Source: Hydrurus foetidus (Eukaryota). From it: 64,000 nucleotides of DNA. The DNA is taken from the NCBI GenBank assembly GCA_900617105.1, contig UYFQ01000858.1, forward strand, positions 1-64,000, given 5' to 3'. The stretch's first letter is position 1, and each line of letters starts with the position of its first letter. Position numbers and translations under genes: made by a program. Below are positions 26,563-49,430 of the stretch, piece after piece. Under the pieces are notes generated by a model. The model worked only from the letters and a program-made list of their open reading frames with translations. It searched no databases and had not been told where the DNA came from.

Positions 26563-28194
26563 TTACATTACTGAAGTACTGTTTTTCGCAACGTAAACAA
26601 ATCCTATATCCAGCAATAGGTTTCGTCTATCTGCGTAACTTTTACCATTCCGAATGCTATTAACTAATATTCCCAGTTTCATTCCCCACGTTTCTTCCGG
26701 CCATTCGACTGTTGAGGGAACACTAAAACTTCTCGGCACTAACATGTGTCCCTCTCTGTCTCTAAAAGTCTTCAAAGCAGTGCAAACAGATGAGAACGTA
26801 AACGCTCTCTTTGACTGGTGCTTGTAATCAAACCCAAGGGCTATGAGTTCCTCCCTCCTGTCCGCATAACTCAAACCTTGCCGTATGCTATCCACTAGAG
26901 TGCCTAATTTCATGCCCCATGTTTCACGAGGCCATTCTATGCTGTCACTGGGTACAACGAATTTCTGTGGTACTCTCAGACAGCCATATTGATTTTTATA
27001 CAGCAGAAGTGCAGTTTTGGCAATATTGAATTTGGCTGCTGATGCATTGAAGCTGAATCCGATTCGAAGCAATTCCTGATGTCTATTCGCATAGTGACCG
27101 TTTCTTATCTTAGTAACTATCGATCCTAACTTCAATCCCCACGTTTCAACAGGCCAATCAAGCGTTTCAGATGGAACTACAAATCTTGTAGGAACCAACA
27201 TATGACCATTCAAATTCTTGAAATTCACTAAAGCTTGCATAGCTATGTTGAATTTTAAATCAGCCTGGTCAAGAACTATTCCTTTACTTACGAATTCTTC
27301 TTTTCTGTCAGCGTAACCTCCACTTTTAACTCTCACCACAACACTTCCTAAATGCATGCCCCACAACTCTTCAGGCCACTCATCTGTATTCTCAGGCACG
27401 ACGAATGAAAGAGGTACAATAGAGTTACCGTTAAGCTCCTTGAATTTTAGCAGAGCTCGCAGGACCAGTCCGGATTCATAGTCATGACGGGACTCGAAAT
27501 AGAATCCAATTTTTATCAAGTCTTCTCGTTTGTCCACGTAGCTTGCCCCTCGCTTGATGTTGTAAACAATCTCTCCAAGTCTTATTCCTAACGTTTCCCT
27601 CGGCCATTCTTTACTTGCATTCGGGACTGTGAAACGTCTCGGAACCATCATGGTCCCGTTTTCTTTCGCGTAGTGAACAAGTGCTACCTTAATGGCTTCG
27701 TAACGCGCCTGCGCCACACCAAAATAGAAACCGATGCTCGATAAATCATCTCGTTTATCAATATAGCTGATACCTCTCCTGATATTGTTTACAACGTCAC
27801 CGAGTTTCATTGCCCACATTTCTTCGGGCCATTGGTCATCTTGACCTGGTACGACAAACCGTCGGGGAACCATCATATCGTTGTACAGCTCCTTATATCT
27901 GATTAGTGAACGTCGGACGAAAAGGTACTTGTTAATATACCGTTGGCTCTGATTCCTTTTCCTCCCCACCTCGCCGTTGTAGGATAACTCGCCTGTTGAT
28001 GGCGCATTTGATGCCAGGGATTCTGACAGAGCCATTTCATTGTCCCAAACTCTAATTGCTGCAAAGGCTATTGAGCGCTGGCAACAATACGATCTTAGCC
28101 TCCTGCCAGGAGTTGTCATGATGGCATCGACCAAGTATAAAAGGAAGCAGTGTCGTAGCAAGGCGATCATCACTCCTATAGGTGATAACTTCAT
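26563..28194 (-). CDS. Helicase-associated (HA) domain repeat protein, six ~75-aa repeats, hydrophobic N-terminus
   Basis: Single ORF (first ATG ~28194); six repeats of AL..YK..NG.M.VP.RF.VP.....WP.E.WGMKLG..V..IR.G..Y.D.R..L..IGF, matching the stramenopile HA-repeat pattern. Confidence 0.85.
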   Translation of the reverse strand: MKLSPIGVMIALLRHCFLLYLVDAIMTTPGRRLRSYCCQRSIAFAAIRVWDNEMALSESLASNAPSTGELSYNGEVGRKRNQSQRYINKYLFVRRSLIRYKELYNDMMVPRRFVVPGQDDQWPEEMWAMKLGDVVNNIRRGISYIDKRDDLSSIGFYFGVAQARYEAIKVALVHYAKENGTMMVPRRFTVPNASKEWPRETLGIRLGEIVYNIKRGASYVDKREDLIKIGFYFESRHDYESGLVLRALLKFKELNGNSIVPLSFVVPENTDEWPEELWGMHLGSVVVRVKSGGYADRKEEFVSKGIVLDQADLKFNIAMQALVNFKNLNGHMLVPTRFVVPSETLDWPVETWGLKLGSIVTKIRNGHYANRHQELLRIGFSFNASAAKFNIAKTALLLYKNQYGCLRVPQKFVVPSDSIEWPRETWGMKLGTLVDSIRQGLSYADRREELIALGFDYKHQSKRAFTFSSVCTALKTFRDREGHMLVPRSFSVPSTVEWPEETWGMKLGILVNSIRNGKSYADRRNLLLDIGFVYVAKNSTSVM

Positions 28195-28403
28195 TGGCAA
28201 TCACTAGAAGCATTGCAGTATGCGTTGTTTTCGCACGAATTTAGCAAGTTTTGCACAAGCATGCTGAAAGCTACTTCTGCAAGCAGAGGAAAACCCTGCA
28301 ACAGTTTTCTTCAGATCTCTCTACTATTTATCTTGGCAATGTAACAGAATCTTGATCTTCACTCTTCACTGTGATCAAATCAAATCTGGAATCGATTCGG
28401 AAG

Positions 28404-28737
28404 TGTTGGATATATCTGAGTTCATGACACGAACACATTGAGTGTACTTATGCATCCGTACGGTGTACGGGTTAATTTGTGTGTGTATGCACGTACGTGC
28501 TTGTGTTGCGAAGATGTATGGACCTGAACAATGACCGTGCTTCTATGGTAGCGAAGAGTTTGAATTTGTTTCTGGGTGAAATCGACTCGTTGCTTTCTGT
28601 GGATGAGAAGCACAGTCGAATTAACAAGTGATCATCGATACTATCAATCCCATTTCACGAGTCTTGATAACTGAGCCAGTGTCCTCAAGGTCCACGTTCC
28701 GTCCGAGCAGAGTCCGGAATTCAAAGGTTCTTCAACA
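28404..28737 (+). repeat. 5' LTR of Copia element
   Basis: tgttggatat...ttcttcaaca; direct repeat of 33613-33946. Confidence 0.98.
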
Positions 28738-28749
28738 TAATTCGACTGT
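28738..28749 (+). promoter_or_regulatory. Non-tRNA primer-binding site complementary to LTR-internal 28612-28623 (putative self-priming)
   Basis: TAATTCGACTGT is the exact reverse complement of ACAGTCGAATTA at 28612-28623; no TGG start. Confidence 0.8.
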
Positions 28750-28761
28750 CGAGGCATTGAC

Positions 28762-31700
28762 ATGCCACCCAAACGCGCAGTTGAAGCAATGAAAAGCACT
28801 GAGGAGTGCATTCTTCAAATCGGCAAGTTTAACAATATTATCAAGTGGCGAGAAAGCATGCAGACTATAGTCACAGAACTATACGGCATACTAGGGATGT
28901 TCTTCACGACGAACGTGAGATACGAACAACCTCGCACAACAATTAAATATCCAGAGGATTCCGAATCAGAAGATTCGACATCAGAATCGGAGATAGAGGC
29001 CCGCCCGGCCATATCCCCTGAAGTACGTGCGGCGTACCTTGAGGGCAAACCTGCGCGCGACGCGGCGAGAGAGATTCGCAATGAGAGACGCCGCAGAAGT
29101 AACGATCGCTCGAGAGCCAAATACAAAGAGGAAGATTACCTTCAAAGAAAGCGCGACATAAAAGCGCAGAAGGAACACGAACGGACTATTTTCCCGATGA
29201 TGTGGAAACGTATGTCTACGGACTCACAGAGTCGCGTTAGAGAGGAGGAAGGCTATCGCACGGCATACCTCACACTGGACTGTGTGTTACTCTGGACACT
29301 CATCAGAAGAACACACCTCACCCACATGTTCGGGGATACAGACCCCATGAAGGAGATAAATCAGCACGAACAGGAGAGTAAGTACGGCATGATGAGACAG
29401 GGAGAGAGGGAACTGATCACTACATTCAAGGCGAGGTTCGATGAGCAGATCCTAGCCAACGATGCAGTTGGAGTAGCGAAGATCACAGACACACTCCGCG
29501 CACTAGACTTCATCGGGAAGTTAGACCCGAAACGCTACAGACGTATGATGACGGAGATGCGAAACGATGCACTCAGGCAGAAGCCGGACGCGTACCCAAA
29601 GTCCCTAGCATCGGCATTCAGGATAGCGTCACAGTGGCGCACCGATGGTAGTTCACCGATGGCACCCACACCCCCAGGGGCATCCGCCTTCGTAACTGAG
29701 GAAGTCCACGTCACCGCATCGAAGGATACCGAGAAGCGAGCCGGGAAGACCGGAGGGTACAAGAAGAAACAGTTAGCAGACATAGACTGTTACGCGTGCG
29801 AAGGGAAGGGGCACTATGCTAAGAACTGCCCCAACAGAAAACCGTCGGCTGAGAAAGTCCACGTCACAAAATCTGAACCAGACAGCGAAGAGGAGAGTGA
29901 TCGAGATGACTGGGGGGTTGCACTCATCACAGCAAGTGAAATGTGCATGTTCTCTCGGTACGAAGTACTGCTCGATAACGAAGCATCGTTAAACATCTTC
30001 AGCAATAGAGATCTACTCACCGACGTCAGACAAGCAGTTCAGCCGATCAAAGTAAGCGGGATACAATTAGGCGGAGGCGTCGACGTCGACAGAGAAGGAG
30101 ACTTCGGCGAATTTGGAACGGTGTTTTACAGCGGCGATGCTTCAGCCAACATCCTATCCTTCGCGGCACAAGTGGATGCAGGAGCAATCATCAGATATGA
30201 CCATCTACAAGACTGTTTCACGCTACAGCCGAAGGGGAGCATGAGAGTATATAGATTCGGGCGAAAGTCTATCCCAGGAAGCGGAGGACGATTCTACTCA
30301 TGCGATTGGAGAAGCGTCGACGTCGAGACTGCCATGGTGACAACAGTCGAGCAGAACTTACGTGCATTTACAAAACGTGAGATCGAGAGAGCACGAGCAG
30401 CGAGGGAACTCATGGCGCGAATGGGATTCCCTTCAGTGGCGATGGCGATGTCAATAGTAAACTCCGGGAGTAATTTTGATATATCATCGAGAGACTTTCA
30501 AGTCGCTGAGGCGATATGGGGAAGAGACATGGCATCCTTGAAGGGCAAAACGACGAAGCGAGCTACTGTAGCTGCAGATATCACGATCAAAGCTAAGATT
30601 GTTCAGCAGGAACAGGTGCTAGCGATTGACATTATGTTTATCGACAAAATTGCTATTCTAATAGGCGTGGCTACTCCGTTAGGTCTGACTATAGCATACA
30701 GTCTCAACAACGTCGTGCTCAAGAAGTCAAGTCGAGCTGTAGAGCATGTCAGGAAAGGAATTGCCCACTTCCTCGGCGTGCTGGGATCGCAGGGATTTAA
30801 GACATCTGTTATCATGAGCGATGGAGAGGGCGCAGTGGTGGCACTGGTGGACGAGCTTGGGAAACTGGGAGTGGAAGTCGACATCAGCGGAGCAGGAGGA
30901 CATGTAGCTAGAGTTGAGAGGAGAATACGTGTTATTAAGGAAAGACTTCGAGCTACCGTATCACACCACTTACCTTTTACTTTGTCGAGTGTGGGCATCG
31001 TGATGTGCGTACTGTACGTAGTCTCACGGTTAAATTTCGAACCATACGGTGAACGAGAATGGGGTCCTAGCCCAAGAGAAGCTTTCATAGGTAGAAAGCC
31101 AGATGGTAAAAGAGACTTCAGATGTGCATTTGGAGACTATGTACAGTGCACAGTGGCCAATACAGAGTCGACTCTCAGATCTCGCACAGAAGACTGTGTA
31201 GTTATGCTGCCGCTTGGAAACCGTACGGGTACGGTGAGGATGTTGTCTTTAACTACCGGAAAGCTAGTGAACCGAGATCAATTTATAATCATGCCAATGC
31301 CTGAATCAGTTATTAAAAGATTGAATGCGCTCGCACTAGCAGATGGAAGGGTGATGGGAAAGAGTGAATTGGTGGGAACCGATAACATCAATGAAACAGT
31401 CAACGGTAAAACAGAGGGGTTACCAGAGACGATAGAAACAACCATAAATGAGGGTGTAGACCCATCGATTACACTACTGGATGCGAATTACAACCCTGAG
31501 TTGGTATACGAAGAAGCCGGCGACCAGATCGATGAGACTCAACTCGACGAGCCGCATGCGGAAGAGTCCGGACTCGCAGATGATATGATTCCACCACAAA
31601 CAGTACGATTCGAACCGAAGGAAGTAGCGATGGATGACTTGATGACCAGCTTCAGAAAGTTGGCAGTTGGACTACCTCACACAGTATCGGCCGAGACTGT

Positions 31701-33546
31701 CGATGAGCAGGGTGTACCGGAGGACTACGGCGAGAACGGTGCAATCGACATGGGAGCGACAGAGGAACCAGTTACAGTGACCTCTACACCCAACACTTAC
31801 TCAGCATACGGACACAGGGTAGTCCCAAGAGCGGATCTGATGGATATGTTCAGAGGAGACAAACAGACCGCAGCACTACTCACTAGGAACTATGACTCAG
31901 CAGGAGGAGATTGGGGTGAATATGTGATGAACATTTCAGTAAACGAAGCACTGAGGACAAGGGGAAAGGATGCAGAGACAGTGATACAAAAGGAGTTAGG
32001 ACAGATGATCGAGAAGAAAGTCTGGACTCCCGTAGACATTCGAGGCCTGTCGCACGGAGAGAAAGCTCGCATCATACGGTCAAGTATGTTCTTGAAGGAG
32101 AAATTCTTGGCTAGTGGTGAGTTCGAAAAGTTGAAAGCGAGATTAGTTGCAGGAGGAGATCAACAGGACAAGACATTGTATGATGATTTGTCAGCTCCTA
32201 CTGTTGGGACCAGCTGCGTATTCACCCTGTTGTGCATCGCAGCTCACGAAGGTCGGAAGGTCACTGTGGTAGATATTAGCGGGGCATACTTGAACGCAGA
32301 CATGAACACTGGGCTAACAGTTCATATGCGATTAGACAAGAGCATGACAGGCATGATGGTGAAGCTGTCACCACAGTACGAGAAGTACATGGACGCCAGA
32401 GGATGTGTTGTGGTGAGGTTGGACAAAGCGCTGTACGGATGCGTGGAGTCAGCAGCACTGTGGTATGAGAACCTCAGGGAGAGCCTGAAGAAACTTGGAT
32501 ACACACCGAACGCTATAGACACATGCGTATTCAATAAGCGCAACGAGAACGGCGTACAATGCACTATCGCTGTGCACGTGGACGACTTAATGATTACTAG
32601 CACAGACTCAGACATGATCGAGTCGCTCGCTGTAGGGCTGGCGAAGAGATACGGAGATATCACTCGCAAGGACGGCCCGATCGTGAACTACCTAGGAATG
32701 GTGTTCGACCTGACTGTACGTGGAGTAGCTAAGGTGACGATGACGGGGTATGTAGATGACATGCTGAAAGAAGTGGGGACGAGCAAGGGAGCGCGTACCC
32801 CGGCGACAGAGGGTCTCTTTGAGGTGAGACCGGATGCACTCACGGTGAGTGAGGGACTGAGGGTGATGTTTCACAGACATGTGGCTAAGATGCTATACCT
32901 GGCGAAGCGAGCCAGACCGGACTGTCTGACTGCGGTCGCATTTCTTGCCACGAGAGTGACCAAGTGTACAGTTGACGACCTAGCGAAGCTCGATCGCCTT
33001 ATGAGATACGTATGGGCGACTCGGGAGAGAGGAATAGTGTTTACACCTGGAGCGTCAGGGATTGTTGTGAGTGTCCTTATTGATGCAGCATATGGAGTGC
33101 ACGCAGACGGGAGGTCCCATACGGGGAGCTGCATCGTAGTGGGCGATAGAGGAGCAGTTCACTGCAAATCTTCCAAGCAACAGATTGTAACGAAGTCGAG
33201 CACGGAAGCTGAGCTGGTGGCTCTGTCCGACTCCGCGAATCAGGCACTTCACGTGAGAAGCTTCATCATCGCACAAGGACACGTGTGTGGCCCTGTCATC
33301 ATACACCAAGACAACATGTCCTGCATGGCGCTCATCGACCGAGGACGGTCAGGAGCAGAGCGCACGAGACACATCTCAATCAAGTATTTCTGGTTGAAAG
33401 AGAGGGTGGATATGGGTGAGGCGAAGGTGAAGCACCTCGGGACAAAGGACATGTATGCGAACATGTTGACGAAGCCACTCCAGGGAGCACAGTTCAAGAC
33501 GGAGAGAAAGGGCGTCACAGGGTGGCCGGACAAAGATTTAGAATAG
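28762..33546 (+). CDS. Copia gag-pol polyprotein (1594 aa)
   Basis: Zn knuckle CYACEGKGHYAKNC; protease LLDNEAS; integrase DIMF/SDGE/VERRIR; RT KARLVAGG, DISGAYL, KALYG, HVDD; RNase H DAAY, SSTEAELVA, QDN, ANMLTKPL. Confidence 0.97.
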   Translation: MPPKRAVEAMKSTEECILQIGKFNNIIKWRESMQTIVTELYGILGMFFTTNVRYEQPRTTIKYPEDSESEDSTSESEIEARPAISPEVRAAYLEGKPARDAAREIRNERRRRSNDRSRAKYKEEDYLQRKRDIKAQKEHERTIFPMMWKRMSTDSQSRVREEEGYRTAYLTLDCVLLWTLIRRTHLTHMFGDTDPMKEINQHEQESKYGMMRQGERELITTFKARFDEQILANDAVGVAKITDTLRALDFIGKLDPKRYRRMMTEMRNDALRQKPDAYPKSLASAFRIASQWRTDGSSPMAPTPPGASAFVTEEVHVTASKDTEKRAGKTGGYKKKQLADIDCYACEGKGHYAKNCPNRKPSAEKVHVTKSEPDSEEESDRDDWGVALITASEMCMFSRYEVLLDNEASLNIFSNRDLLTDVRQAVQPIKVSGIQLGGGVDVDREGDFGEFGTVFYSGDASANILSFAAQVDAGAIIRYDHLQDCFTLQPKGSMRVYRFGRKSIPGSGGRFYSCDWRSVDVETAMVTTVEQNLRAFTKREIERARAARELMARMGFPSVAMAMSIVNSGSNFDISSRDFQVAEAIWGRDMASLKGKTTKRATVAADITIKAKIVQQEQVLAIDIMFIDKIAILIGVATPLGLTIAYSLNNVVLKKSSRAVEHVRKGIAHFLGVLGSQGFKTSVIMSDGEGAVVALVDELGKLGVEVDISGAGGHVARVERRIRVIKERLRATVSHHLPFTLSSVGIVMCVLYVVSRLNFEPYGEREWGPSPREAFIGRKPDGKRDFRCAFGDYVQCTVANTESTLRSRTEDCVVMLPLGNRTGTVRMLSLTTGKLVNRDQFIIMPMPESVIKRLNALALADGRVMGKSELVGTDNINETVNGKTEGLPETIETTINEGVDPSITLLDANYNPELVYEEAGDQIDETQLDEPHAEESGLADDMIPPQTVRFEPKEVAMDDLMTSFRKLAVGLPHTVSAETVDEQGVPEDYGENGAIDMGATEEPVTVTSTPNTYSAYGHRVVPRADLMDMFRGDKQTAALLTRNYDSAGGDWGEYVMNISVNEALRTRGKDAETVIQKELGQMIEKKVWTPVDIRGLSHGEKARIIRSSMFLKEKFLASGEFEKLKARLVAGGDQQDKTLYDDLSAPTVGTSCVFTLLCIAAHEGRKVTVVDISGAYLNADMNTGLTVHMRLDKSMTGMMVKLSPQYEKYMDARGCVVVRLDKALYGCVESAALWYENLRESLKKLGYTPNAIDTCVFNKRNENGVQCTIAVHVDDLMITSTDSDMIESLAVGLAKRYGDITRKDGPIVNYLGMVFDLTVRGVAKVTMTGYVDDMLKEVGTSKGARTPATEGLFEVRPDALTVSEGLRVMFHRHVAKMLYLAKRARPDCLTAVAFLATRVTKCTVDDLAKLDRLMRYVWATRERGIVFTPGASGIVVSVLIDAAYGVHADGRSHTGSCIVVGDRGAVHCKSSKQQIVTKSSTEAELVALSDSANQALHVRSFIIAQGHVCGPVIIHQDNMSCMALIDRGRSGAERTRHISIKYFWLKERVDMGEAKVKHLGTKDMYANMLTKPLQGAQFKTERKGVTGWPDKDLE

Positions 33547-33612
33547 AATATTATTCCATAACAATATGCTAGTTTAGTTATTGCGTACAAATGAGTCGTA
33601 GCATGAAGGGTG

Positions 33613-33946
33613 TGTTGGATATATCTGAGTTCATGACACGAACACATTGAGTGTACTTATGCATCCGTACGGTGTACGGGTTAATTTGTGTGTGTATGCA
33701 CGTACGTGCTTGTGTTGCGAAGATGTATGGACCTGAACAATGACCGTGCTTCTATGGTAGCGAAGAGTTTGAATTTGTTTCTGGGTGAAATCGACTCGTT
33801 GCTTTCTGTGGATGAGAAGCACAGTCGAATTAACAAGTGATCATCGATACTATCAATCCCATTTCACGAGTCTTGATAACTGAGCCAGTGTCCTCAAGGT
33901 CCACGTTCCGTCCGAGCAGAGTCCGGAATTCAAAGGTTCTTCAACA
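33613..33946 (+). repeat. 3' LTR of Copia element
   Basis: Direct repeat of the 5' LTR, followed by TSD GGAAG. Confidence 0.98.
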
Positions 33947-34267
33947 GGAAGAATTTCGGAAGATGGATGGCCGTGTATGACGGCAGTTGCGGCTAAGTAC
34001 CTTACACGGTTGGTCGCATTGTGAATTGTGAATGTATACTGTTCGAACATCTGGCCGGGTATCCCGTATCCCGGTATACTGTACCAAGCAATAGAACCCT
34101 CAGTCCTCAGTTAATTTTAAAAAACAATTCTTCTTCAAATTCAAATTATTACAACCCATGTTACATGTTACACATTCTACAACTGTCCCGTTGAAGGATC
34201 TCCTCGTGTTGATGTCATTCTATGAAAATAAATTCGGGGAAGTGGAGATTATTTTCGATACTTCAGG

Positions 34268-41627: not shown

Positions 41628-43500
41628 ATGTCGTCTGGCGTGAAGGTACTCCTTATTTTGGGACTGTGCGAGGGATTCAGCTACTCCTTCCGTCAATCTA
41701 CCCGAACGCTATCAACAGTGACGAGATTTTCGTCTTTAACAGACACACAGTCATTCGATGCTACAGAAGTTGTCGTCATAGGGTCTGGTTTGGGTGGACT
41801 GTCGTGTGCAGCTGTTCTAGCAGCGAGCGGCGTGAAAGTTACTGTACTTGAGTCCCATTATGAGATTGGTGGATGTGCTCACGAATTCTTGTATCGAGAT
41901 GATGGTTCGACAGTAGCAAGTGACAGAATGAAACCTGAGGATCACAGCAACGTTTACCATTTCGAAGCTGGACCGTCACTGTACTCTGGTCTATCACAAT
42001 CGAGATCACCCAACCCTCTGAAGCATGTGTTCCAGATGATCGGCGAAGAGCCCAAATGGATTACTTACGACATATGGAAGGGTGAGATGACTTGTCACTC
42101 TTATAGTGGTGATTACGTATGCCTGTTAATAATCTTATTGGCTGACAGGTTATTTTCCGGAAGCTGTTGATGGTAATCTACAAGGCATCGGTGCTGGAGC
42201 GTTCGAGCAGACACTGCAACAATATGGCGGACCCACTGCTCTGTCTGACTGGCAGAAACTAGCAGCAGCTCTGCGACCACTTACTGATGGGGTAATGTCT
42301 CTACCTACTGTTGCCATCCGACCCGACCTAGGAGCATTGCTTACTCTAGGTCGCTACCCTGTGGCCATTGTAAAAACAATCCAACAAGGCCAGAACTTAG
42401 TGCGACCTTTTTCAGATTACTACAAAGAACTTGGCACAGAGGATGTTTTCCTTAAGAACTATTTGAACCTGCTGTGCTTCCTTCTTCAGGGTCTGCCAGC
42501 TGAGGGAACATTGAGCGCAGTTATGGCCTACATGATCGATGATTTCTTCAAACCGAATGCTGTGATGGATTTCCCTGAAGGAGGATCTGGTGCCATTGCG
42601 TCAGCATTGGAGAGAGGAATTATGAAATATGGTGGCAAAGTTGTGAGAAGGGCTCATGTGGAAGAGATAGTGATTGAGGAGGGCAAAGCAGTGGGGGTTC
42701 GATTGAGATCAACCAGTGCAAATGGAGAAGGAAAAGTTGTGAGGGCCAGTAAAGGGGTAGTGAGTAACTGCGACATGTGGAGCACATATAACATGATTCC
42801 TAAAGGAATAAAAGGGGCGGAGAAATTAGACGAAGAAAGGGAAGTATTGCTTCAGAACACAGAGATGTGTAAATCGTTCATGCACTTGCATTTGGGCATA
42901 GATGCTGCTGATCTGCCCCCTAACCTGCCCCCTCAATGGACTGTGTGTGCAGACTGGTCGCTACCCATTGATGCACCAGGGAACGTTATTGTCGTCTCTG
43001 TTTCCTCCTTATTAGACCCTTCTCTAGCCCCTAAAGGTCGCCATGTCATTCACGCGTACACAGCAGGCAATGAACCATACGCAATATGGGAGAAATTCGA
43101 CAAAAAAAGTGATAAATTCGTTGGAACCAGCGAAAGTCATAAAGAGGAGTACGAGAAATTAAAGACTGACCGGTCTGCCTGTTTGTGGGCAGCTATTGAG
43201 AAAGAAATACCGGATGTGCGGGCACGCACTAAAGTGCAGCTAGTCGGAACACCACTGACGCATGCGCGTTTCAACAGAAGACATCAAGGAACGTACGGTC
43301 CTGCTATAGCAGCTGGGAAAGGAACATTCCCCGGCCAAGCTACCCCATTGAAAGGATTATATCGGTGCGGAGACAGCACTAACCCAGGGATAGGGGTGCC
43401 TGCTGTAGCTGCTAGTGGAGCAATGGCTGCGAATGCGTTGATACCTGTGTGGAAACACATCGAACTGCTCAACAGAATTAAAATGCCCGAGAAAGTTTAA
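41628..43500 (+). CDS. Carotenoid isomerase (CRTISO)-like / phytoene dehydrogenase-family FAD enzyme, probably plastid-targeted; exons 41628-42081 and 42149-43500
   Basis: [13 protein letters not shown] motif, [58 protein letters not shown]; signal peptide ending CEG-FSY (ASAF-like). Confidence 0.92.
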
Positions 43501-47375: not shown

Positions 47376-49430
47376 TGTAGTCGCGGCCGGATTCGAGTAC
47401 GAAGAATCCGGGTAAAGACGGTATGCTTTGGTAAACTGTTAGGTTAGTTACAGTTTGTGAAGAAGAGAGCAAACAGCTAACGACAGACACAAACGATAGG
47501 CTACAAGGGTGCTGATGCTGATGAGCGTCCGTTACCGGTGGACAAGTGATGTGGATGAAAATAGACTATGGGTACGTGAATTATATACAACCAACACAGA
47601 CCTGTAAGGTGCGAGTGGTTGAGGGATTCGAAGACTTTGCAGTCTTCGCGGACTTAGCACGTGGTTTGATGGTGTCCTCATCAGGCTCAGCAGCGCGTTT
47701 GGAGATAGGCTTATCTTTAGAACGCGAAGCTGGGCCTGGAGTAACATCAAAACCAGCAGCCCGAAGCTCGTTAGCTGAGTTTCTGAGAGTAGTCAGTTGC
47801 GTCCACCAAACGAATCGAAAGTCTTTCAAATCGTTGATTGGAACAGTCTCACCGTTCACCTTGCGGCGTAAGATGAGCTGCCAATTGACGGGGTGGGTAG
47901 GCAACTGACGCTCTAGAATCTTAACAGCCTTAAGCTGTTCCTCAGCAGTAGTGCTGGGAAAATTTGCTACCAATGCACCCAGGGCAGTATCGTTACAGGA
48001 GTCAGTCTCAATATTGTTCAAATCAAATCTGAAATTGAACGATGAGACTTGCTCGAGGAACGATGCCTGACCCAAAGGTGTACCGATGGACGCATCAGGT
48101 ACTGCCTTGAGGAGTTCTTTGCAGAATCTCTCGGTAGTCCATGACTTCCACTCTTCGCACTCGTCGCGAATTGCTCTCTCAGTGCAATACTGCCTTTGCA
48201 GGAGTGTTACAAGAGATTGCTCGACGTCTAATGGTACCACGTCAAGAAACGTATAAGGGCAACCATTCTTGCGAAGGTCATTGGTGATGCTTAAAACTTC
48301 CAGATGAGTTGGAACCTTGCTGAGCTTTCTAACCTTTTCATGAGGTAGTAGATAGCGAGCAGCAAGGTTTGAAACAACAACATCGTCAGTAACACCACCA
48401 ACGGTAGCAAAAGTTGCAACACTCTGAACATTTCTGTTCATGACATTGCTGTCTGAAGTGAGCAACAAGGAATCGGTTTGCACCGGGTTTGCAGGCAAAA
48501 CTGCGGCAGATAACACAGACAGAGGCAACACATCAGACACAACGACAGGTACAGAAATGACAGTGTCGGTGGTGATGTTGGCGGTGTCGGCGGTGATCGC
48601 GGTGGCGGATATCATCGTGGATGATGATGGTGATGGCGCTGGTGGCGAAAGCGCCGGCTCCAAAAATACTCCATCCACTCGCTGGGGAAGTTGTTGATGT
48701 TCAACAGAGACTTCCCCAGCTTGGGATATCGCTAGATCCGCTGGCAGAGCTCCAGATGGGGCGGAAGATGGCTGCAAAAAATTTTGCAAGGGGTTTCCCC
48801 CTCCCACGCCGGGGGCCAAATTCGAGGAGGGATTAGAGGCGAAAGATAGATGGGCTGCGACGTCAGTCGCAGCAACAGATGGCTCTGGAAGCGAGGGAGG
48901 ATTCGCCGAGTCGGAATCTCCCGTTGTGCTAGCGTCCTGGCTGTTGGCGACGATTTCGTCGACGGCGTCAGTTGATGGCGCTTCCTGAGAAATCGACAGG
49001 GGAGCCGTCGAAACGGCCGATGCCCTGGAAAGTCTTCGTCGGTTGCTGGAAACCATACTGGTGATCAGTGCCAGATGGTCGTCGGATGTCGGCGGTTGAA
49101 AATCTATCTAGCTCTCCAGTAACGAGAGTTCGTCTAACAACTCTCAATATTAATATTGTAGTCGCGGCCGGATTCGAGTACGAAGAATCCGGGTAAAGAC
49201 GGTATGCTTTGGTAAACTGTTAGGTTAGTTACAGTTTGTGAAAGAAGAGAGCAAACAGCTAACGACAGACACAAACGATAGGCTACAAGGGTGCTGATGC
49301 TGATGAGCGTCCGTTACCGGTGGACAAGTGATGTGGATGAAAATAGACTATGGGTACGTGAATTATATACATACGTGAATTATATACAAACGTGTACGAA
49401 GCGTACGGTGAACGTACGTGCTAGGCTACA
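47376..49430 (-). mobile_element. Internally deleted (gag-only) LTR retrotransposon, probably Gypsy-type
   Basis: Full LTR 49157-49430 (TGTAG...CTACA); truncated LTR copy 47376-~47590; 4-bp TSD ACGG at 47372-47375 and 49431-49434. Confidence 0.85.
47581..49056 (-). CDS. Truncated gag-like protein (491 aa)
   Basis: Lies between the LTR copies; low-complexity N-terminus, helical middle, basic linker; ends at VCVGC (apparent first half of a Zn knuckle) with the stop supplied by LTR sequence. Confidence 0.65.
   Translation of the reverse strand: MVSSNRRRLSRASAVSTAPLSISQEAPSTDAVDEIVANSQDASTTGDSDSANPPSLPEPSVAATDVAAHLSFASNPSSNLAPGVGGGNPLQNFLQPSSAPSGALPADLAISQAGEVSVEHQQLPQRVDGVFLEPALSPPAPSPSSSTMISATAITADTANITTDTVISVPVVVSDVLPLSVLSAAVLPANPVQTDSLLLTSDSNVMNRNVQSVATFATVGGVTDDVVVSNLAARYLLPHEKVRKLSKVPTHLEVLSITNDLRKNGCPYTFLDVVPLDVEQSLVTLLQRQYCTERAIRDECEEWKSWTTERFCKELLKAVPDASIGTPLGQASFLEQVSSFNFRFDLNNIETDSCNDTALGALVANFPSTTAEEQLKAVKILERQLPTHPVNWQLILRRKVNGETVPINDLKDFRFVWWTQLTTLRNSANELRAAGFDVTPGPASRSKDKPISKRAAEPDEDTIKPRAKSAKTAKSSNPSTTRTLQVCVGCI

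What the first reader, a model, noticed from the sequence alone, without database searches (positions are those of the whole stretch)
28612..28749. Copia retrotransposon with a Tf1-style self-priming signature instead of a tRNA PBS
Seen: the 12 nt directly after the 5' LTR (28738-28749, TAATTCGACTGT) have no TGG and no obvious tRNA complement. They are the perfect reverse complement of ACAGTCGAATTA at 28612-28623 inside the LTR. The 3' end of that 12-mer would pair exactly at the LTR boundary, where minus-strand synthesis must begin. The rough chance of such an anchored match in a 334-bp LTR is 323/4^12, about 2e-5. Established: Tf1/sushi-type Gypsy elements anneal the first ~11 nt of their transcript to the PBS and cleave them off as primer, whereas Copia elements are classically tRNA or tRNA-fragment primed. 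Inference: transcription starts near 28612 and this Copia lineage primes itself, which would be an independent origin of tRNA-free priming. I cannot confirm it is undescribed without a literature or Repbase search.
Basis: partly seen in the sequence, partly recalled or inferred. Interest (0 to 1): 0.92.

Follow-up and report, generated by a model that had tools for sequence, protein, structure and literature searches.

The report
Self-priming Copia retrotransposon in golden alga
An intact Copia-type jumping gene, likely from a golden alga, has at its primer site 12 bases that pair with its own terminal repeat instead of a tRNA end, and dozens of relatives keep such a pairing with different letters, so this algal lineage likely starts copying itself with the front end of its own RNA, a trick shown in fission-yeast Tf1 and already predicted for one plant Copia group.

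Summary
Confirmed. An intact Copia element (28404-33946; identical 334-bp LTRs, 5-bp TSD, one 1594-aa ORF) has 28738-28749, directly after the LTR, as the exact complement of LTR 28612-28623 (4 of 20,000 shuffles). In a blind test 30 of 49 metagenomic relatives show an LTR-anchored self-pairing; with hand curation 48 of 54 (1 weak, 5 unjudgeable). All 47 tabulated primer sites differ, none has TGG, 566 of 574 pairs are Watson-Crick, and the LTR arm begins at an initiator-like C|A in 26 of 47 (background 5%). Best reading: Tf1-like self-priming (0.85). The start site and the cleavage are inferred; no RNA data were available. This lineage looks diatom-Copia-like and far from plant Copia, so a separate origin is likely but not tree-tested. 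I found no paper describing it in algae. This scan already found the same feature on other DNA (diatom genomes; 31 notes). Added here: a chrysophyte-like host, the initiator test, a conserved NAAT start of the primer site, and no Tf1 'pretzel' signal.

The parts
28399..28403 (+). left target-site duplication GGAAG
   Evidence: empty-site contig in run X3
28404..28737 (+). 5' LTR, 334 bp, TG...CA, identical to the 3' LTR
28404..28611 (+). predicted U3 (208 nt), ending in the C of an initiator-like C|A; no TATA near -30
   Evidence: inferred; only TATA in the LTR is at 28411
28612..28623 (+). predicted self-primer: first 12 nt of the predicted transcript (ACAGTCGAATTA)
   Evidence: complement of the primer site; helix in the minimum-energy and centroid folds; mean pair probability 0.85
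28624..28737 (+). 114-nt loop (rest of predicted R-U5), template of the predicted minus-strand strong-stop DNA
   Evidence: role inferred
28738..28749 (+). primer-binding site, 0 nt after the LTR's CA, starting with the lineage's NAAT motif
28762..33546 (+). single intact gag-pol ORF, 1594 aa: Gag with CCHC knuckle (aa 343-358), protease (D405), integrase core (D623, D687, E719), RT (aa 1122-1340, HVDD), RNase H (D1441, E1484, D1517, N1567)
   Evidence: assignment of protease, integrase and RNase H residues from motifs recalled from known Copia proteins, conserved in 43-45 of 45 aligned relatives
33605..33612 (+). polypurine-tract-like GAAGGGTG abutting the 3' LTR (GGGGTG|TGTTG in many relatives)
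   Evidence: role inferred
33613..33946 (+). 3' LTR; holds the second copy of the primer sequence at 33821-33832
33947..33951 (+). right target-site duplication GGAAG

Best explanation
This is an intact, recently inserted Ty1/Copia retrotransposon whose primer site pairs with a 12-base stretch of its own LTR, and it likely primes reverse transcription with the first bases of its own RNA rather than with a tRNA. Shown: the anatomy, the anchored complementarity, its element-specific covariation across a large aquatic lineage, the lack of a tRNA-type site, and an initiator-like C|A at the 5' end of the pairing arm. Inferred steps: (1) RNA polymerase II starts at or within a base of A28612; (2) nt 1-12 fold onto the primer site across a 114-nt loop; (3) inside the particle the element's RNase H cuts near nt 12/13 and frees a 3'-OH, by analogy with Tf1, with the conserved NAAT/AUUN end of the helix as a possible recognition feature; (4) RT extends through U5-R, and plus-strand synthesis from the PPT copies the primer and so rewrites the primer site at each cycle, which would explain the near-perfect Watson-Crick match and the fast joint turnover of both arms; (5) integrase inserts with a 5-bp duplication.
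For: Single-element chance about 2e-5 to 2e-4. Blind anchored test: 30 of 49 relatives at p<=0.05 against a Markov null, about 2.5 expected. Hand curation: 16 more and two 15-bp cases, 48 of 54 in all. In the 47 tabulated elements (46 relatives plus this one): duplex 9-25 nt, median 11; own-LTR score >=9 in 46 of 47 against 58 of 2162 cross pairs; 47 different primer-site 10-mers; none with TGG in the first 8 nt. Close relatives (RT-RH 86-90% identical: L064, L066, L067) have different but still matching arms. Arm begins at C|A in 26 of 47 (17 of 31 in the blind set; background 5%); CA at 0 or -1 in 31 of 47 against 53 of 419 chance duplexes, Fisher p 8e-15. TCA-type initiators are reported for oomycetes and diatoms (PMC3599244, PMC4686930). 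566 of 574 pairs are Watson-Crick, 4 are G-U. The helix has pair probability >=0.5 in 40 of 46 predicted leaders. RT-RH identity to this element spans 39-57%.
Against: No RNA evidence for the start site, the cut or the primer. The two side helices that Tf1 needs (the 'pretzel') give no signal above shuffles: mean longest complement 4.5 and 5.3 nt against 4.9, so the Tf1 model does not transfer whole. The own LTR is the strictly best partner in only 36 of 47, because short A/T-rich sites cross-match. 18 of the 48 positives were placed by hand, which favours matches, and the blind test looked only for Watson-Crick pairs, which favours the low G-U count. L030 has only 7 bp. The whole 179-nt leader folds no better than shuffles (z -0.78). 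This element's own initiator context (GC|AC) is weaker than the TC|A of many relatives. The host tRNA set could not be searched. Relatives share ancestry, so counts are not independent events.
Confidence: 0.85

Rival explanations
1. The helix is a structural element of the RNA leader (packaging, dimerisation or translation control), and reverse transcription is primed by something else, such as a nick elsewhere, a protein or an unrecognised RNA.
For: Long-range leader pairings are known in retroviral RNAs (recalled). The Tf1 side helices are not detected. The primer site lies close to the gag start (mostly 11-55 nt from the junction to the ATG).
Against: The helix starts at the first base after the LTR's terminal CA, where minus-strand synthesis must begin, and ends at an initiator-like C|A. 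It is almost free of G-U pairs (4 of 574), as expected of templated copying. No other primer site is evident.
Confidence: 0.07
2. The primer has the same sequence but is supplied in trans, as a short abortive or processed LTR transcript or from the second packaged RNA, without an intramolecular fold and RNase H cut.
For: Sequence covariation cannot tell cis from trans. No pretzel signal. Loop length varies widely, arm start to junction 57-291 nt.
Against: The intramolecular helix is predicted to form in 40 of 46 leaders. The tested precedent, Tf1, works in cis through RNase H (PMC7175516).
Confidence: 0.05
3. The site binds a host tRNA half or internal tRNA fragment, as in Osser, Bianca or FunCo1, and the LTR match is secondary.
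For: Half-tRNA priming is known in Ty1/copia (PMC6317226, PMC5445492). The first four bases of the site are partly conserved (NAAT in 31 of 47). No host tRNA set was available (no tRNA gene in the window).
Against: 47 of 47 sites differ and follow their own LTR, even between elements 86-90% identical in RT-RH; a tRNA-primed lineage keeps one or a few sites. Four conserved bases are too few for a primer.
Confidence: 0.02
4. Chance match in one element.
Against: Replicated blind in 30 of 49 relatives.
Confidence: 0.01

Closest known systems
Tf1/Tf2 (Schizosaccharomyces pombe), Tj1, Tosmo and the Tf1/sushi group incl. Tcn1 (Ty3/Gypsy chromoviruses)
   Same: [quoted passage not shown] Similar helix length (median 11 here).
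   Different: This element has Copia domain order and an RVT_2-type RT, no chromodomain hit, no detectable 'pretzel' side helices, and a conserved NAAT start of the site. Self-priming is shown by experiment in Tf1 and only predicted here.
TAR lineage of plant Ty1/copia (Houba, Osr-1)
   Same: Copia superfamily, 5-bp TSD, single ORF, self-priming predicted from the same sequence criterion (10 bp or more starting 0-5 bp after the LTR; 89% of 203 elements; PMC6317226).
   Different: Land-plant hosts. This lineage scores only 61-91 bits on RVT_2 and hits no integrase or Gag-associated Pfam family at E<=0.01 (17 of 17 proteins), and its nearest Atlas clusters are mostly diatom-labelled. No direct tree with TAR references could be built.
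CoDi elements of diatoms (Maumus et al. 2009, PMC2806351; branch 1 of Ty1/Copia in PMC2774666)
   Same: Stramenopile host, Copia order, short TG...CA LTRs; nearest Atlas clusters have Bacillariophyta as commonest phylum (score 0.97, phylum known for only 3-4 members each). The motif style resembles CoDiII as I recall it.
   Different: Host here is chrysophyte-like. The main texts searched say nothing on CoDi priming (0 hits for tRNA in PMC2806351; 0 for PBS in PMC2774666 and PMC8147415). Membership in a named CoDi clade was not established.
Fungal GalEa Copia with a Conserved Hairpin Site (PMC5445492)
   Same: Copia elements without a tRNA-type site, thought to prime in an unconventional way.
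   Different: The GalEa hairpin is local, palindromic and conserved in sequence, and the authors found no LTR complement; here the partner lies 57-291 nt upstream in the LTR and varies freely.

Membership tests
Ty1/Copia superfamily | Pol order protease-integrase-RT-RNase H | tested here: met
   motif positions 405, 623-719, 1122-1340, 1441-1567 in one ORF; integrase and RNase H called from recalled motifs, not from a Pfam hit
Ty1/Copia superfamily | RVT_2-type reverse transcriptase | tested here: met
   PF07727, 89.9 bits, cut-off 31.6
Ty1/Copia superfamily | TG...CA LTRs and 5-bp target-site duplication | tested here: met
tRNA-primed Copia (whole or half tRNA) | conserved primer site complementary to a tRNA 3' end (TGG) or tRNA half | tested here: not met
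   0 of 47 with TGG in the first 8 nt; 47 of 47 different 10-mers; host tRNA set itself not searchable
Tf1/sushi group | Ty3/Gypsy domain order, chromodomain integrase | tested here: not met
   Copia order; no chromodomain family at E<=0.01
Tf1/sushi group (mechanism) | primer site complementary to an LTR stretch at the 5' end of the RNA | tested here: met
   complementarity shown; that the arm is the RNA's 5' end is inferred from the C|A signature
Tf1/sushi group (mechanism) | three-duplex 'pretzel' leader | tested here: inconclusive
   no excess of perfect complement for either flank over shuffles; a crude test without G-U pairs or bulges
Tf1/sushi group (mechanism) | RNase H-dependent cut that releases the primer | not testable with these tools
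   needs biochemistry or a transposition assay
TAR lineage (plant Copia) | clusters with TAR in RT/RH/INT trees | not tested
   no TAR reference sequence could be obtained through the tools; indirect evidence against
TAR lineage (plant Copia) | self-primer criterion: 10 bp or more complement starting 0-5 bp after the LTR | tested here: met
   12 bp at offset 0
TAR lineage (plant Copia) | land-plant host | tested here: not met
   a neighbouring host gene's nearest named relative is a chrysophyte protein at 80% identity, diatoms about 50%; one gene only
CoDi clades (diatom Copia) | clusters with CoDiI, CoDiII or CoDi6 in an RT tree | tested here: inconclusive
   Atlas neighbours mostly diatom-labelled; no named CoDi sequence among 240 listed homologues or cluster members
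Fungal GalEa | Conserved Hairpin Site (palindromic 9-mer plus local complement) | tested here: not met
   partner lies inside the LTR, sequence not conserved

The most novel reading that the evidence does not exclude
A very large Copia branch of stramenopile algae (chrysophytes here, diatoms in the scan's other notes) is self-primed throughout, evolved this independently of both Tf1/sushi and plant TAR or kept it from the earliest LTR elements, and does so with a simpler signal than Tf1: one initiator-anchored helix ending in a conserved AUUN motif, with no pretzel.
Probability: 0.4. Interest if true: 0.78.

Novelty: new variant of a known kind. Interest (0 to 1): 0.56.

Why it matters
If true, tRNA-free priming is not confined to one Gypsy clade and one plant Copia clade but is the rule in a large algal Copia lineage. 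That bears on whether self-priming arose repeatedly or is ancestral, a possibility raised in PMC3601003. It would free these elements from host tRNA supply and from silencing by tRNA fragments (inference). It gives a second enzyme family in which to ask how an RNase H cuts an RNA-RNA duplex. In practice, annotation tools that require a tRNA match would miss these elements, and the pairing predicts their start site to within a base. This copy is intact with identical LTRs and an empty allele in nature, so it is a good candidate for a test.

Tried and rejected
No whole genome is held, so no host tRNA search and no other genomic copies; no second copy or solo LTR in the window. Sequencing runs: no RNA holder listed; the four runs laid are contigs and cannot show RNA ends. 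Variation at the two arms among copies within those runs was left unexamined. Viral-contig scans: nothing confirmed. A Gag-anchored metagenome scan confirmed nothing. No Rfam match at 28300-29000 up to E 1, so no ribozyme or tRNA-like family. No solved-structure relative by sequence for RT-RH. A rooted tree with TAR, CoDi or Ty1 references could not be built: homologue lists held no named element; the tree is a quick, midpoint-drawn tree without outgroup and shows only that the pairing is spread over all sampled subclades. 24 of 78 loci were left out as fragments without the pol-to-gag spacer; L003, L036, L039, L041, L043 lack the LTR arm or the junction and could not be judged. The Asp-to-Asn change at the fourth RNase H acidic position in this element's subclade was considered as a self-priming adaptation and rejected: many self-pairing relatives keep Asp. 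A tRNA-Ser(CGA)-like reading of the arm was considered by eye and dropped (no anticodon stem). Look-ups of earlier notes by sequence and for chrysophyte wording returned nothing.

Full report
Observation. The element runs from 28404 to 33946. Its LTRs (28404-28737, 33613-33946) are 334 bp, identical, begin TG and end CA, and GGAAG flanks both ends. One ORF (28762-33546, 1594 aa) carries a CCHC knuckle, protease, integrase core, RT and RNase H motifs in Copia order (the protease, integrase and RNase H assignments rest on motifs recalled from known Copia proteins). The 12 bases directly after the 5' LTR are the exact reverse complement of 28612-28623. The composition-aware chance is 2.2e-5, and 4 of 20,000 resampled LTRs reached 12 with offsets 0-5 allowed. 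A sediment run holds the empty site, which confirms the ends and shows that the insertion is not fixed. Identical LTRs and an open ORF mean a recent insertion.

Host. No genome is held. One neighbouring gene (42133-43500) has as nearest named relative a chrysophyte protein (labelled Ochromonas / Hydrurales sp. CCMP1899) at 80% identity, with named diatom proteins near 50%. Runs holding the element with a stated habitat are freshwater or sediment metagenomes. The host is therefore likely a chrysophyte; this rests on one gene.

Relatives. A protein search found 479 full-length relatives at E<=1e-30 among 7993 scored candidates, none of the 120 listed bearing an element or organism name. A metagenome scan gave 78 loci. 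For 49 of them a script could build the spacer between the end of pol and the start of gag. In a blind test (any junction after NCA, 8-260 nt before the called ATG; longest perfect complement 40-330 nt upstream; Markov null) 30 of 49 reached p<=0.05, where about 2.5 are expected. Of the 19 misses, 13 showed a 9-16 nt pairing at an LTR-like end once mis-called start codons, G-U pairs or one mismatch were allowed, two more (L006, L048) have perfect 15-bp pairings at variant LTR ends, one (L030) has 7 bp, and three lack the needed DNA. Five further loci were examined by hand: three positive, two without the junction. Total: 48 of 54 positive, 1 weak, 5 not judgeable; 24 of 78 loci were fragments and were left out. 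Hand curation favours matches, so the blind figure is the safer one.

Covariation and controls. In 47 tabulated elements (46 relatives and this one) the duplex is 9-25 nt, median 11, and its LTR arm starts 57-291 nt (median 144) before the junction. All 47 primer-site 10-mers differ and none has TGG in its first 8 nt. A score of 9 or more is reached with the own LTR in 46 of 47 cases and in 58 of 2162 cross pairs; the own LTR is strictly best in 36 of 47. RT-RH identity to this element is 39-57%, and positives occur across the sampled subclades of an unrooted quick tree. L064, L066 and L067, 86-90% identical in RT-RH, have different arms that each match their own site. 566 of 574 pairs are Watson-Crick, 4 G-U, 4 mismatched; the blind test selected on Watson-Crick pairs, so this is partly built in. 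The start of the site is partly conserved: NAAT in 31 of 47.

Is the arm the start of the RNA? No RNA run was listed and contigs cannot show ends. The indirect test is where the pairing stops. The arm's first base is the A of a C|A in 26 of 47 elements (17 of 31 in the blind set) against 5% background; CA at 0 or -1 occurs in 31 of 47 against 53 of 419 chance cross duplexes (p 8e-15). TCA-type initiators are described for Phytophthora (commonest form TCATTCT) and diatoms (TCAH+1W) (passages of PMC3599244 and PMC4686930). Pairing that ends at an initiator is what self-priming predicts. This element has GC|AC at that place. The helix appears in the minimum-energy and centroid folds of the predicted leader, although the whole leader is no more stable than shuffles (z -0.78), and has pair probability of 0.5 or more in 40 of 46 leaders.

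Mechanism. Most likely, transcription starts at about A28612, the first 12 nt anneal to the primer site over a 114-nt loop, the element's RNase H cuts near nt 12/13, and RT extends the freed end. This follows Tf1, where the first 11 bases pair with the PBS and RNase H cuts between bases 11 and 12 (passage of PMC7175516). Plus-strand copying of the primer would rewrite the primer site in each cycle (established for tRNA primers, recalled), which would account for the clean pairing and the quick joint change of both arms. One Tf1 feature was not found: the two side helices of the 'pretzel' (passage of bioRxiv 10.1101/2022.12.06.519325) show no excess over shuffles in a crude test. Rivals are a structural helix with another primer (0.07), the same primer supplied in trans (0.05), a tRNA fragment (0.02) and chance (0.01).

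Comparison with what is known. It works like Tf1 but is not a Tf1/sushi element: it has Copia order and RT type. Self-priming in Copia is not new as a prediction: PMC6317226 (passages, section on Ty1/copia and one supplementary table read; the large element table and FASTA file could not be read) predicts it for 89% of 203 plant TAR elements and cites an earlier proposal for Houba and Osr-1. Fungal GalEa Copia lack a tRNA site but have a local hairpin (passages of PMC5445492), and Dictyostelium Skipper lacks one without any LTR complement (passage of PMC5006619). This lineage appears far from plant Copia: 17 of 17 proteins scanned give only a weak RVT_2 hit (61-91 bits), some a zinc knuckle, and no integrase or Gag-associated family (that plant Copia hit those families strongly is recalled), and the nearest Atlas clusters are mostly diatom-labelled, on 3-4 labelled members each. 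PMC2774666 and PMC5445492 place CoDi-like elements in a branch apart from the other Copia lineages (passages), while PMC2806351 puts one diatom group, CoDi6, with Tnt and copia. I could not place this element on a tree with named references, so a separate origin from TAR is likely, not shown.

Novelty. Seven library searches on priming listed no paper that, by title, abstract start or the passages I read, reports self-priming in algal or other stramenopile Copia. Term searches in three papers that treat CoDi elements found no discussion of their primer; the supplement of PMC2806351, Repbase, GyDB pages and subscription papers were not visible and may bear on this. The scan itself has noted the same feature before on other DNA: 31 notes in at least 6 genomes hold the search words, and seven of the eight shown concern diatom-type Copia. 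These are unchecked notes, read after my own test, and are not counted as evidence. Verdict: a real, lineage-wide feature; a new variant of a known mechanism; interest 0.56.

Noticed in passing
L021:3005-3542: A 538-nt GT...AG stretch interrupts gag of a relative; removing it restores one frame whose product aligns across the junction with L023 Gag. A possible spliceosomal intron inside a Copia gag.
   Followed up: partly
window 33460-33462 (aa N1567): The fourth acidic residue of RNase H (ADxxTK) is Asn in this element and 43 of 45 aligned close relatives, while many other self-pairing relatives keep Asp.
   Followed up: partly
window about 30410-30435 (aa 551-558): The region before the integrase core has a conserved RMGFPS motif and no evident HHCC zinc finger (expected motif recalled).
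   Followed up: no
L007, L048, L004, L006: Some relatives have LTR ends that are not CA (CG, or C followed by a site starting CAAT) yet keep the pairing.
   Followed up: partly
L025, L029, L065: A subclade with short arm-to-junction distance (57-74 nt) and 9-bp helices.
   Followed up: no
L005, L016, L032, L078: Contigs with two elements head to tail sharing one LTR, either tandem arrays or assembly of circular repeats.
   Followed up: no
window 26563-28200 (-): ORF of repeated helicase-associated (HA, PF03457) domains; the element sits about 200 bp from the upstream end of this reading frame.
   Followed up: no
window 28489-28500: Perfect 12-bp palindrome GCACGTACGTGC in U3; long U3 hairpins also occur in L036 and L041.
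   Followed up: no
window 47581-49107 (-): ORF with a Gag-like look ending in a CxxC start; possibly another retroelement.
   Followed up: no
same assembly, other piece: Earlier notes on this assembly describe Brevundimonas-type DNA, so the assembly is probably mixed or metagenomic.
   Followed up: no
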